NCBI GenBank assembly: GCA_010093745.1 | Contig: MU005996.1 | Span: 62,001 to 126,000, forward strand | From: Piedraia hortae CBS 480.64 | Lineage: Eukaryota | DNA: 64,000 bases | Reading direction: 5' to 3' | Shown here: positions 51,110 to 53,662 of the stretch, in pieces | How positions within the stretch are numbered: position 1 is the stretch's first letter | How the letters are laid out: each line of letters begins with the position of its first letter | Translations under genes and position numbers: made by a program | The notes under the pieces: model-generated | Databases searched by the model: none | Told to the model about the DNA's origin: nothing | Seen by the model: the letters and a program-made list of their open reading frames with translations, nothing else

Positions 51110-51379
51110 TCAATTGTAACCGCTGCGTAAAAGTCAGCAATGCAGTCGAGTGTGTGGGTAGACTCACTCGCGACCGCTCAAACGGGCAGTAGTGTTGTAG
51201 CCATCTCGTCCAAAGTTGACTGGACAATTGTAACCATCGCGTCCACAATTGACTGGACTATTGTAGCCATCCCTTCCATAGTTTACCGGGACGTTGTACC
51301 CATCCCTTCCAGAATTGACCGGAGCATTATACCCATCCCTTCCAAAGTTGACTGGAGCATTGTAACCGTCGCGTCCCAT
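51110..51379 (-). CDS. GRDGYN tandem-repeat peptide gene A (74 aa, 7 cores); intron 51123-51167
   Basis: M-(GRDGYN-xPVNx)5-GRDGYN-TTARLS-GRDGYN-stop after removing a GTGAGT...GCTGAC...GCAG intron. Cores vary at synonymous positions. Confidence 0.88.
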
Positions 51380-53112
51380 TTTGCTTGTGTATGGATATCT
51401 TCAAGGTGAATGTATCAGGCGAATGTCTGTCTTTCTGGCAGGACTATACCATCTTTTAAACCAAATGGCTCTCGGCCAACTCATCGGTGTGTGTCATGAA
51501 ACGTCTTCAAGCGGACACGTCTCCGCGAGCATGGAGATGACCAGCGCCAGCATGTATAGAAAGTCGCTGCTGAAATGTCGTCGCTGGTAGCACGGCGTAC
51601 CGATGCAGCTTCTCGAAGCGGAGAAATCTCCGTGGATACTGAGCTCAGTAAGGCAAACGGGTATAAGAGGACCTCGTTGAGGTGTTCTACTTAATAGCAC
51701 AGCAATCCTCCGGGTAGATCCGTCTTCCAACAACCAGTTTCTGTAGCACCGTTCTGCTGATTCAGGGCACTGGTACGGGATCGTCCGGGTTTCATGCATC
51801 AGTCGTACATCAAGTTTGCTCCTGGTCCAGTCGAGTGGGTCGGGTACCATTTGCTTTTCTTGTTGTATTTGAGTCATAGTATCCACTTCAATAGGCCGCC
51901 GGCCATTTGATGCAGGGAAATGAGGAAGTCCGTGGCAGACCATTTCGAAACGACATTCTCCGGCGTCCGTCGTTACCTAATCAGTTCCATTGCTGTGTAG
52001 TTTTTTATTGGTTGCATAATGACCTTCCGACAGTTCCAGCATGGCGCAGGTCCATCCAGGATATTTAGTGGAGTTTGTCGCATGATCATGCCGTTTCGGT
52101 ACGAGATACCCACATTCCAAACTCGACTCAAAGCTGCAGAATCATTCTTTTGGGTAAGGTCCCAGAAACATGCACAGTTCTCACGCATGGAAACGGCATC
52201 AGCCGTCGACCAGTTTGTCGCACATTCTGAAACTGCATGTTGTCAGGCTGAGGCACGCAAGCTTACTCATAGACTGTACTTTCTCTGCAGCATTTCGGTG
52301 CCTTCAGCCGTCTCAGCGTCTCGTATCACAGAAGCATGCACCGAACATTCACTGAAGGTTTCCAGAATGTTGTCCCTGCATATCGGAGAATATTCAGCCA
52401 TGTTCCCAAAATAGCCTTCAATCAACGGCAGAAACGTCCTCACGTTTACGTACAGCAAGGAAGTCGTCGCCAGCCTTATCCAATTCCACCTTGAAGAAAT
52501 ACGACGAAGCGCGAAACAGAGTTTAGAGCTTTCCCAAAAATTAGCCCTTCATGTGTCGAGGCATCTCGTCTTGACAGAGCGCCGTGGCTCGAGAGGACAG
52601 GGTACGCGAGCGGCCCTGCCGAGTCGTCTGAGGCACTTCGTACAAAACAACATCTTTTTAGTAACACGCTGCATACCCGTTGTCTCTTTTGAGGCTGGGT
52701 TCCCGGTTCCTGGTCCTTTGCAGGAGGCAGGTTTGTGGCTGAACATGCACTTCGCCATGTCGTACTTCCCGTAACCAAAAACAGATTCGTTTTAGCAACG
52801 ACCAGTACGCTATCATGCAAGCACATTGGCTCTGTTCGAGGCTGGTGCTTGGGCTCTTGATCCTGACAGTCACTTGAGGACTCGCAGGATGTGTCAAGGG
52901 TAAGTTCACGGCTGACAGGCGAGTCTTGACGTTTTTGGATCATTTTCCGGACAGTCAGTACATTGAGTAAGGGTGAAGGTAGGTATATAACCTCAGGTCT
53001 TTCACTTGTTTGTATCATCAGCTTCAGACTCTCAATCCAGCATCATACCAAGCTTCTACCAGCAATTCAATCTCTCAGCTTCCTTCTTTCTATTCACGAA
53101 ATCACCACAATC

Positions 53113-53662
53113 ATGGGACGAGACGGTTATAATGCCCCTCTCAACTCTGGTCGAGACGGGTACAACTCTCCTCTTTCCAAGGGAAGGGATGGGTACAATG
53201 CCCCGGCAAACTGTGCTGGACGAGATGGATATAATTTTCCGGTTGTCATGGGTCGGGATGGGTATAATGCTCCTCTACCCAGAAGGATGGGAAGAGATGG
53301 ACACAACGCTCCTCTATCCAGAAGTATGGGAAGGGACGGATACAATGCTCCCCTTTCTAGACGGATGGGAAGGGATGGGTACAATGCTCCTCTATCCAAA
53401 GGCCGGGACGGGTATCAAATCCCCATCCATTTCGCCGGGCGAGACGGTTACAACTCTCCCGTCAACGCCATTGTCATGGGACGAGACGGTTACAACACCC
53501 CTATCAACTCAGCCGCACGAGACGGCTACAACGCTCCCCTCAGCATGGTGGTCCTGGGCCGTGACGGGTATAATACTCCCCTCTCAACCGGTCGCGAGTA
53601 AGTCCTGCCTTTTCACACTCCATACACCAATAATCTAACATGGACACAGTGGCTACAACTAA
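53113..53662 (+). CDS. GRDGYN tandem-repeat peptide gene B (165 aa, 14 cores); intron 53598-53649
   Basis: ATG in ACAATCATGG context, TATATAA at 52984-52990, 14 cores with 5-8 aa linkers. A GTAAGT...CTAAC...ACAG intron completes the final GRDGYN-stop. Confidence 0.9.

What the first reader, a model, noticed from the sequence alone, without database searches (positions are those of the whole stretch)
51110..53662. Divergent pair of leaderless GRDGYN multi-core peptide genes: candidate undescribed fungal RiPP-like/peptide precursor system
Seen: two head-to-head genes made almost entirely of a hexapeptide core. Of 21 cores, 18 are exact GRDGYN, plus GRDGHN, GRDGYQ and ARDGYN, separated by 5-8 aa variable linkers. 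Core codons are scrambled synonymously (GGA CGA GAC GGT TAT AAT; GGT CGA GAC GGG TAC AAC; GGA AGG GAT GGG TAC AAT), and linker lengths are always multiples of 3, so selection acts on the peptide. Established: dikaritin precursors (UstA, PhomA, AprA, GigA) and Kex2-processed repeat proteins have a signal peptide and KR-type sites; MSDIN and borosin precursors have a leader or enzyme domain. These two have none and start directly with the core. Inference: cytosolic polyprotein precursors cut into many copies of a small, possibly modified or cyclised peptide by an unknown route. I cannot exclude that homologues already exist as hypothetical proteins.
Basis: partly seen in the sequence, partly recalled or inferred. 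Interest (0 to 1): 0.92.

Follow-up and report, generated by a model that had tools for sequence, protein, structure and literature searches.

The report
Leaderless GRDGYN repeat protein gene pair
Two neighbouring fungal genes encode small disordered proteins made almost entirely of the six-residue motif GRDGYN; they are transcribed and spliced and belong to a rare, unstudied family that may be cut into short peptides, although no cutting has been shown.

Summary
Gene A (+, 53113-53662, 165 aa, 14 cores) and gene B (-, 51379-51110, 74 aa, 7 cores) face away from each other across a 1.7-kb spacer. 18 of the 21 cores are exact GRDGYN. Selection acts on the peptide: in the cores pS is 0.92 and pN is 0.04. 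A Pro two residues after each core is also conserved. Both genes carry an intron inside the last core. Contigs of an independent, apparently RNA run lack both introns at exactly those positions. Neither protein has a signal peptide, a Pfam family or a predicted fold.

Of 68 database hits, 15 carry G-R-[DGS]-G-Y-N arrays, and those with a name are all "hypothetical". Two of them have signal peptides, and one of these has KR/KREAEA sites directly after the cores, like a Kex2-processed precursor. Others are larger disordered Hypoxylon proteins with decaying arrays. No protease, transporter or modifying enzyme lies nearby.

The RiPP-like reading is therefore only partly supported. "Polyprotein cut into peptides" (about 0.4) and "intact disordered motif-array protein" (about 0.35) remain close. 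I found no publication on the family. Interest is moderate to high.

The parts
53113..53597 (+). Gene A exon 1: start codon, 13 complete cores with linkers, and the first 8 nt (GGT CGC GA) of core 14
   Evidence: ORF; spliced reading; X2 contig colinear over 53124-53597
53598..53649 (+). Gene A intron, 52 nt, GT..AG, splitting the last core after GR and 2 nt of the Asp codon
   Evidence: Predicted; skipped exactly in an X2 contig (joint 53597|53650)
53650..53662 (+). Gene A exon 2, a 13-nt coding microexon that completes D-G-Y-N and carries the TAA stop
51168..51379 (-). Gene B exon 1: start codon, 6 complete cores and the first 8 nt of core 7
   Evidence: ORF; X2 contig colinear over 51168-52309
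51123..51167 (-). Gene B intron, 45 nt (CT..AC on the + strand, so GT..AG on the - strand), at the same position and phase in the last core as in gene A
   Evidence: joint 51122|51168 in an X2 contig
51110..51122 (-). Gene B exon 2, a 13-nt coding microexon that completes D-G-Y-N and carries the TGA stop
52984..52990 (+). TATATAA box 129 nt upstream of the gene A start codon, with no ATG between it and the start
   Evidence: consensus match only
51380..53112 (.). The 1733-nt spacer between the two start codons. The two promoters share no sequence. The spacer is covered by X2 contigs, one with a weak 54-nt GT..AG skip at 52728-52781. Its ORFs have no Pfam match

Best explanation
A and B are old paralogues encoding cytosolic, intrinsically disordered polyproteins. 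The unit under selection is the octapeptide G-R-D-G-Y-N-x-P, and the rest of each linker drifts freely. The most likely reading, by a narrow margin, is that the proteins are precursors cut once per unit to release many copies of a short peptide carrying GRDGYN. The cut would fall next to the conserved N-x-P: either after the Pro, as a prolyl-oligopeptidase-type enzyme would do, or after the Asn. Shown: gene structure, transcription and splicing, peptide-level selection, absence of a leader, and predicted disorder. Inferred from homologues: that the core is a releasable unit ending at Asn. Purely inferred: the protease, any modification or cyclisation, export, and the function of the peptide.
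For: (1) The proteins contain only cores and short linkers. They run from M-core to core-stop. (2) The cores are nearly invariant while their synonymous sites are saturated (pS 0.918, pN 0.039). Pro at +2 is conserved in 18 of 19 linkers (pS 0.77, pN 0.05), whereas +1 and +3 are unconstrained. (3) Homologue P0002 has a canonical N-terminal hydrophobic signal-like segment. KR follows 4 of its 6 internal cores directly, once as KREAEA, and the protein ends at the core. This is the layout of alpha-factor and Kex2-processed repeat precursors, and it places a cleavage site at the same +2 position that Pro occupies in the leaderless forms. P0060 is a second form with a signal peptide. (4) 9 of 17 family proteins end exactly at core residue 6, across D-, G- and S-type cores. 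P0057 reads GRG followed by unrelated residues, as expected if the same intron was missed by its annotator. (5) Pro at +2 occurs in 73 of 86 non-terminal cores in the 15 family proteins without a signal-like N-terminus (counted). Invariant prolines flanking the core are the targets of POPB in MSDIN precursors (PMC6514808, passages read). (6) Both genes are expressed and correctly spliced. (7) AlphaFold2 finds no fold: mean pLDDT 47.9 and no secondary structure. This is expected for a precursor but does not discriminate between the readings.
Against: No processing has been observed. No multi-core precursor without a signal peptide, leader or follower is among the four fungal RiPP classes listed in PMC9233826 (abstract seen in the listing). 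No peptidase, transporter or tailoring enzyme was found among the 48 ORF scans covering 32000-64000 and the larger ORFs elsewhere in the window. The same motif forms arrays inside 345-505-aa Hypoxylon proteins that are disordered throughout (Atlas model pLDDT 0.36). Those proteins carry KKVK-type stretches, and their arrays decay in congeners P0069 and P0070. That fits a motif in an ordinary disordered protein better than a precursor core. Position -1 of the core shows no conserved cleavage signal. Only 2 of 17 family members are of the secreted type. By base rates, small hydrophilic leaderless repeat proteins are usually stress or disordered proteins rather than precursors (my own judgement).
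Confidence: 0.4

Rival explanations
1. The proteins act intact as cytosolic intrinsically disordered proteins. The tandem G-R-D-G-Y-N-x-P units would work as a multivalent array, with Arg and Tyr as 'stickers'. The array could be a hydrophilin-like protectant or condensate scaffold, or a multivalent ligand for a still unknown folded partner. Nothing is cut out.
For: No signal peptide and no processing sites. Predicted full disorder. [quoted passage not shown] G-type relatives read GRGGYN, which is an RGG-type motif, and sit in larger disordered proteins with NLS-like stretches. The neighbours are housekeeping genes. Named relatives come from a lichen fungus, a resin-dwelling fungus and wood fungi.
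Against: Bulk-property proteins rarely keep six consecutive residues invariant while synonymous sites saturate. All 21 cores in the window are RDG rather than RGG. The 1-kb upstream regions contain no STRE elements (a weak test). This reading does not explain the KR-flanked, signal-peptide-bearing homologue P0002, nor why the family so often ends exactly at the core. Codon use shows no strong bias typical of very highly expressed stress genes (weak).
Confidence: 0.35
2. The array is a substrate scaffold. Each G-R-D-G-Y-N-x-P unit would be a recognition site for a modifying enzyme acting on Arg, Tyr or Asn, and the modified full-length or partly trimmed protein would be the active species.
For: Conservation of every core residue implies recognition by a specific macromolecule. 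Arg in a Gly context and Tyr are common modification sites (general knowledge). D, G and S are tolerated at position 3 while R, Y and N are kept.
Against: No candidate enzyme lies in the window. No genome was held, so co-occurrence could not be tested. There is no direct evidence of any modification.
Confidence: 0.12
3. Artefact: a transcribed minisatellite or non-coding RNA whose repeat periodicity keeps a frame open by chance.
For: Other frames over the repeats are also open: a +1 frame of 168 aa in A and an antisense ORF of 89 aa over B.
Against: The core pN/pS of 0.04 is specific to one frame. The intron phase and the 13-nt terminal coding exon are conserved in both paralogues. The exact motif is conserved in distant fungi.
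Confidence: 0.03

Closest known systems
Kex2-processed repeat proteins (KEPs) and alpha-factor-type pheromone precursors
   Same: Many copies of a short, near-identical core are separated by variable spacers, and the last copy ends at the stop codon. Family member P0002 has the full KEP layout: signal peptide, KR or KREAEA after the cores, and an end at the core.
   Different: A and B have no signal peptide and no KR/RR directly after any core. Their conserved flank is x-Pro. The motif does not occur in the text-held supplements of two KEP surveys, PMC7329392 (3 files) and PMC6339444 (4 files).
MSDIN (amatoxin/phallotoxin/cycloamanide) precursors processed by prolyl oligopeptidase POPB
   Same: Both are cytosolic precursors without a signal peptide, and the units are bounded by invariant prolines (PMC6514808 passages). 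In gene B, consecutive prolines delimit 11-residue units.
   Different: MSDIN precursors carry one hypervariable core between a conserved leader and a recognition sequence. Here there are many invariant cores with no leader or follower. MSDIN precursors occur in Basidiomycota, whereas the named relatives here are Ascomycota. Whether a POPB-like enzyme is present could not be tested because no genome was held.
Dikaritin precursors (UstA type)
   Same: Multi-core repeat precursor with a Tyr-containing core.
   Different: UstA has a signal-peptide-like N-terminus and KR motifs flanking each core, and it lies in a biosynthetic cluster (PMC6514808 passage). None of these features is present here.
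Borosins (OphA type)
   Same: No signal peptide, with the core at the C-terminal end of the protein.
   Different: Borosins have a fused SAM-dependent methyltransferase domain (PMC6514808 passage). A and B have no domain at all. The N-terminal region of the larger Hypoxylon relatives has no Pfam or PDB match and is modelled as disordered.
Hydrophilins, LEA and dehydrin-like stress proteins, and RGG-motif disordered proteins
   Same: Small, Gly-rich, very hydrophilic and disordered, with a short conserved segment repeated between variable linkers. G-type relatives carry RGG followed by Tyr. The core plus Pro loosely recalls the dehydrin Y-segment. That consensus is recalled from memory and is only a lead.
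   Different: Pfam gives no Dehydrin, LEA or KGG match even at E<=10. The cores in the window are RDG, not RGG. The degree of invariance is far higher than composition-driven proteins need.
Ankyrin repeats (source of spurious search hits)
   Same: D-G-Y-x-x-P-L resembles the start of the consensus ankyrin repeat. This produced hits to designed ankyrins in the PDB and to long ankyrin proteins: 4 of the 12 non-family hits I scanned.
   Different: The period here is 11-14 aa rather than 33, no helices are predicted, and no ankyrin Pfam family matched A or B.

Membership tests
Kex2-processed repeat proteins (KEPs) | N-terminal signal peptide | tested here: not met
   The maximum Kyte-Doolittle value (9-residue window) within the first 30 residues is -0.66 for A and -0.21 for B. 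B has an in-frame stop 8 codons upstream. A has no upstream in-frame ATG. X2 contigs are colinear with the genome for 930 nt upstream of B and for 52782-53110 upstream of A, so no spliced upstream coding exon is seen. No SignalP-type predictor was available.
Kex2-processed repeat proteins (KEPs) | Cores separated by dibasic (KR/RR) Kex2 sites | tested here: not met
   The residues at +1 and +2 are x-Pro in 18 of 19 linkers and are never KR or RR. Only two RR pairs occur, both inside linkers of A. The feature is met in homologue P0002 (4 of 6).
Kex2-processed repeat proteins (KEPs) | Three or more near-identical short repeats | tested here: met
   14 and 7 cores.
Dikaritins | Precursor clustered with UstYa/DUF3328, tyrosinase or methyltransferase genes | tested here: not met
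   No such Pfam family appears in the 48 ORF scans. Only ORFs of at least 90 aa from stop to stop were scanned in 32000-64000, so small exons could have been missed.
MSDIN / POPB-processed peptides | Core flanked by invariant prolines | tested here: inconclusive
   Pro at +2 follows 18 of 19 cores and is under selection, so units are bounded by prolines. However, the Pro lies two residues beyond the invariant block.
MSDIN / POPB-processed peptides | Conserved leader and C-terminal recognition sequence | tested here: not met
   The proteins run from M-core to core-stop.
MSDIN / POPB-processed peptides | Dedicated POPB-type macrocyclase in the genome | not testable with these tools
   No genome is held for this window, and none was found in the window.
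Borosins | Fused SAM-dependent N-methyltransferase domain | tested here: not met
   No domain was found in A or B.
Hydrophilins | High Gly content and high average hydrophilicity | tested here: inconclusive
   Gly is 16.4% (A) and 18.9% (B). GRAVY is -0.91 (A) and -1.13 (B). I recall the numeric thresholds as Gly >6% and hydrophilicity index >1, but did not read them. B would pass and A is borderline.
Hydrophilins | Induction by water-deficit or osmotic stress | not testable with these tools
   Only one apparently RNA run was available, kept as contigs and without condition information.
Dehydrins / LEA (Pfam) | Match to the family profile | tested here: not met
   Not listed at E<=10.
RBM1CTR (Pfam PF08081) | Genuine match to the profile | tested here: inconclusive
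   A scores 29.2 bits against a cutoff of 22. The score comes from three 14-residue stretches that match positions 8-21 of a 45-position low-complexity profile, and B scores only 11.6. I read this as a compositional match (RDGY-type) and not as membership.
Ankyrin repeat | 33-residue helix-turn-helix repeat | tested here: not met
   The period is 11-14 aa, no helices are predicted, and there is no Ank Pfam hit.

The most novel reading that the evidence does not exclude
A and B found a new class of ribosomal peptide precursor in ascomycetes. In this reading they are cytosolic polyproteins with no signal peptide, leader or follower. A prolyl-oligopeptidase-type or still unknown protease would cut them at every conserved N-x-P into roughly 11-14-residue, possibly head-to-tail cyclised, GRDGYN peptides, which are then exported without the secretory pathway. 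The KR-flanked, signal-peptide-bearing relatives would be the same peptide family re-routed through the Kex2 pathway.
Probability: 0.15. Interest if true: 0.85.

Novelty: new variant of a known kind. Interest (0 to 1): 0.6.

Why it matters
If the units are released, this would be a multi-core peptide precursor that bypasses the secretory pathway. No such type is among the four recognised fungal RiPP classes (amatoxins/phallotoxins, borosins, dikaritins, epichloecyclins; PMC9233826, abstract seen in the listing). It would also be missed by genome-mining pipelines that require a signal peptide and KR sites. The family would then offer a natural comparison of two routes to one peptide: Kex2 in P0002 and an unknown cytosolic route here. 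If the proteins act intact, they are an unusually sharply conserved motif array in a tiny disordered protein, and the motif's partner would be worth finding. In either case neither gene appears in the protein collection searched (no self-hit). Genes of this kind are therefore probably under-annotated, and the family may be wider than the 15 relatives found.

Tried and rejected
- Whole-genome search: no genome is held for this window. I could not look for further copies, a prolyl oligopeptidase or co-occurring genes.
- Sequencing runs: no listed holder is on record as RNA, and X2 is only guessed to be RNA. The contig depths (245 for the contig with B, 13.7 for A) cannot rank genes, so I did not use them.
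P0002 as query gave 541 pattern matches and 0 relatives. Gene A as query gave 3 loci, L001-L003. All three are single chance matches without repeats. No DNA context for any homologue was obtained.
- ESM Atlas: for A the best feature scores were 0.80-0.82, all to bacterial clusters and below the useful range. For the Hypoxylon N-terminal region there was no usable hit, and TM scores were 0.42 or lower.
Organisms are therefore unknown for 11 of the 15 relatives.
- PDB sequence search: A hit only designed ankyrin proteins, which I judge spurious. P0009 and P0033 gave nothing.
- Promoters: the two upstream regions share nothing beyond 9-11-mers and contain no STRE or pheromone-response elements.
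- Spacer ORFs (149, 131 and 180 aa) have no Pfam match.
- Earlier findings of this scan: nothing relevant.
- Literature: 'GRDGYN' gave 0 papers. GRGGYN/RDGYN/RGGYNQP/GRDGY gave 22 papers, of which 20 were listed, and none concerns fungal repeats by title. In the one I opened, the match is a synthetic peptide ending ...RGGY-NH2.
- Ideas considered and dropped: N-myristoylation (Arg after the N-terminal Gly is disfavoured; rule recalled from memory), 2A-type ribosome skipping (no NPGP), collagen or polyproline bundles (only two G-x-x triplets per unit), and a beta-solenoid (variable linker lengths, no predicted structure).
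Full report
**1. What is there**

The region holds two genes that point away from each other.
- Gene A (+ strand) starts at 53113. It runs through 13 complete cores and then meets a GTAAGT donor after the first 8 nt of a 14th core. 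A 52-nt intron (53598-53649) follows. A 13-nt exon (53650-53662) completes D-G-Y-N and ends in TAA.
- Gene B (- strand) starts at 51379. It has six complete cores and a 45-nt intron (51167-51123) at the same codon position of its seventh core. Its 13-nt terminal exon (51122-51110) ends in TGA.
- The products are 165 and 74 aa. Together they carry 21 cores: 18 exact GRDGYN plus GRDGHN, GRDGYQ and ARDGYN. Linkers are 5-8 aa.

A degenerate DNA pattern for GRDGYN matches 16 times in the window, only inside these genes, against none in 100 shuffles.

**2. It is a protein-coding feature under selection**

- Every synonymous codon for G, R, D, Y and N is used in the cores. Over the 21 cores pS is 0.918, which is saturated, and pN is 0.039.
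- The Pro two residues after the core is equally protected: 18 of 19 linkers, pS 0.77, pN 0.05. Positions +1 and +3 are free.
- In the frame control, the sense frame has pN/pS 0.23 on 24-nt windows. The shifted sense frames give 2.1 and 3.3, and two antisense frames give 1.9. The third antisense frame gives 0.27, but it shares the wobble positions and has 7 stops in gene A.
- The unit under selection is thus G-R-D-G-Y-N-x-P.
- The two genes share no promoter or intron sequence, and their coding repeats are only 70-88% alike at the DNA level over stretches of 26 nt or more (I1-I9). The duplication is therefore old.

**3. It is expressed**

- I laid the contigs of two public runs on 50900-53900. 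X1 is the likely source DNA and is colinear with the window.
- X2 comes from another study and is guessed by the tool to be RNA. It has contigs that skip exactly 51123-51167 and 53598-53649, with canonical splice ends on the strand of each gene and more than 200 nt of flank on each side. I take this as transcription with correct splicing. The caveat is that the RNA label is a guess.
- No splice joins an upstream exon to either start codon. X2 is colinear for 930 nt upstream of B and over 52782-53110 upstream of A.
- B has an in-frame stop 8 codons upstream. A has none for 61 codons, but also no ATG in that stretch.
- Hydrophobicity of the N-termini is negative.
- The absence of a leader is therefore well supported.

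**4. What it is not**

- Pfam gives no real family. The RBM1CTR score for A comes from three 14-residue low-complexity stretches.
- AlphaFold2 finds no structure: mean pLDDT 47.9 and no secondary structure.
- PDB hits are designed ankyrins. They arise because D-G-Y-x-x-P-L resembles the start of the ankyrin consensus. The same resemblance explains many database hits.
- The neighbours are ordinary genes:
  - MnmE/Mss1-type GTPase (48840-50414)
  - 2-hydroxyacid dehydrogenase (54151-55102)
  - Mso1, a CBS protein and a NACHT-WD40 protein
  - further away, Hus1, a formin, Rpc31 and glutamate synthase
- No peptidase, transporter, methyltransferase, oxidase or DUF3328 protein was found in 32000-64000. 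Only ORFs of at least 90 aa were scanned.

**5. Relatives**

- A word-indexed search of 5.8 billion proteins gave 4 hits for A and 1 for B.
- A full HMMER pass over 1.84 billion representatives gave 68 hits at E<=1e-3. Only 15 of them carry three or more G-R-x-G-Y-N-type cores.
- Of the other 53, I inspected 20 by Pfam or by eye. They are ankyrin proteins, an FMRFamide-type precursor and other unrelated repeat proteins. I did not inspect the remaining 33 beyond the motif count.
- The family consensus is G-R-[D/G/S]-G-Y-N-x-P.
- Named members are all 'hypothetical': Lichina confinis, Mytilinidion resinicola and Hypoxylon cercidicola.
- Neither window gene appears in the collection (no self-hit). 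Such genes are evidently under-annotated.

The motif appears in three contexts.
- **(i) Tiny proteins made only of repeats, without a signal peptide.** These are A, B, P0004, P0057, P0061 and P0067. P0001, P0028 and P0056 probably belong here too. Their long N-termini look like translated upstream DNA ahead of an M-core or near-core start. That is my reading and is not tested.
- **(ii) Two proteins with canonical hydrophobic N-termini.** In P0002, KR follows 4 of 6 internal cores, once as KREAEA, and the protein ends at the core. P0060 has GRSGYNGPIEER three times.
- **(iii) Larger proteins.** P0006, P0009 and P0029 share an N-terminal region of about 200 aa with P0069 and P0070 of other Hypoxylon species. 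They carry GR[GD]GYNQP arrays plus KKVK-type stretches. This region has no Pfam or PDB match. The Atlas models the whole protein as disordered, with pLDDT 0.36. In P0069 and P0070 the arrays are degenerate.

Across the family, 9 of 17 proteins end exactly at core residue 6. Pro occupies +2 in 73 of 86 non-terminal cores of the 15 proteins without a signal-like N-terminus (counted).

**6. How it most likely works**

Two readings are close.

*Precursor reading (about 0.4).*
- The proteins are nothing but cores and spacers, and the core is invariant while the spacers drift.
- The family tends to stop exactly after the core, as alpha-factor-type precursors do.
- P0002 places a textbook Kex2/Ste13 site at the position where the leaderless forms keep x-Pro. 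This marks +2 as a likely cleavage point.
- Prolines flanking the core are what POPB uses in MSDIN precursors (PMC6514808, passages read).
- The protease, any modification or cyclisation, and export are pure inference.

*Intact-protein reading (about 0.35).*
- There is no leader, the proteins are fully disordered and their composition is hydrophilin-like.
- Close relatives have RGG-type cores.
- The same arrays sit in larger disordered, apparently nuclear proteins, where they can decay.
- The genomic neighbourhood is housekeeping.

*What each reading fails to explain.*
- The intact-protein reading does not account for P0002 or for the exact C-termini.
- The precursor reading does not account for the Hypoxylon proteins.
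- Invariance of all six residues argues for recognition by a specific macromolecule, which could be a receptor, a protease, a modifying enzyme or a binding domain. It argues against a bulk physical role.

**7. Comparison with known systems**

The pair fails the defining tests for four known classes:
- KEPs: no signal peptide and no dibasic sites.
- Dikaritins: the same failures, and no cluster.
- MSDIN: no leader or follower.
- Borosins: no methyltransferase domain.

It resembles KEPs and MSDIN in logic only. It partly meets the compositional definition of hydrophilins, but it matches no LEA or dehydrin profile.

I found no publication on the motif. 'GRDGYN' occurs in 0 papers. The related strings occur only in unrelated contexts. 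Two KEP surveys have no occurrence in their text-held supplements. Supplements that are not held as text could still contain it.

**8. Verdict**

This is a real, expressed, unannotated pair of genes from a rare, unstudied fungal family. The 'RiPP-like precursor' interpretation is plausible but unproven, and it competes with an intact disordered-protein reading. I rate it a new variant of a known kind (a multi-core repeat precursor or motif-array protein), interest 0.6. Peptidomics on a double deletion, together with a tblastn survey of fungal genomes, would decide the question.

Noticed in passing
window 51380-53112: The 1.7-kb spacer between the two genes is almost fully covered by contigs of the apparently RNA run X2. 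One contig runs from about 49309 to 52309 across gene B. Another shows a weak 54-nt GT..AG skip at 52728-52781 on the + strand. The three ORFs in the spacer (149, 131 and 180 aa) have no Pfam match. The region could hold long 5' leaders with many upstream ATGs, or separate non-coding transcripts.
   Followed up: partly
window 51140-51409 (+) and 53132-53638 (+): The repeat periodicity keeps other frames open: an 89-aa antisense ORF over gene B and a 168-aa +1 frame over gene A. Their peptides are not conserved and they are artefacts, but a gene caller could pick them.
   Followed up: yes
P0006, P0009, P0029, P0069, P0070 (Hypoxylon spp.): A genus-restricted family of fully disordered proteins. 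It has a conserved N-terminal region of about 200 aa with no Pfam or PDB match, KKVK-type stretches and GR[GD]GYNQP arrays. The arrays are intact in three members and decayed in two.
   Followed up: partly
hits: The motif D-G-Y-N-x-P-L mimics the start of the consensus ankyrin repeat. As a result, phmmer with gene A pulls in giant ankyrin/NACHT proteins (best E 1e-55) and designed ankyrins in the PDB. It also pulls in animal neuropeptide polyproteins, such as the FMRFamide-type P0010 and the P0007 repeat precursor.
   Followed up: partly
window 59903-63998 (-): A NACHT/NPHP3_N NTPase ORF is followed by a WD40 beta-propeller ORF. Together they look like a fungal NLR-type (STAND) gene running off the end of the window.
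   Followed up: no
window 53882-53909: A perfect 14-nt tandem duplication (CATTCTACTTCTGC, two copies) lies about 220 nt downstream of the gene A stop. The X1 contig breaks there, and the X2 contig ends nearby at 53868 with adapter sequence.
   Followed up: no
window 46752-48755 (+): A 667-aa open frame between Hus1 and the MnmE-type GTPase has no Pfam match at E<=0.01.
   Followed up: no
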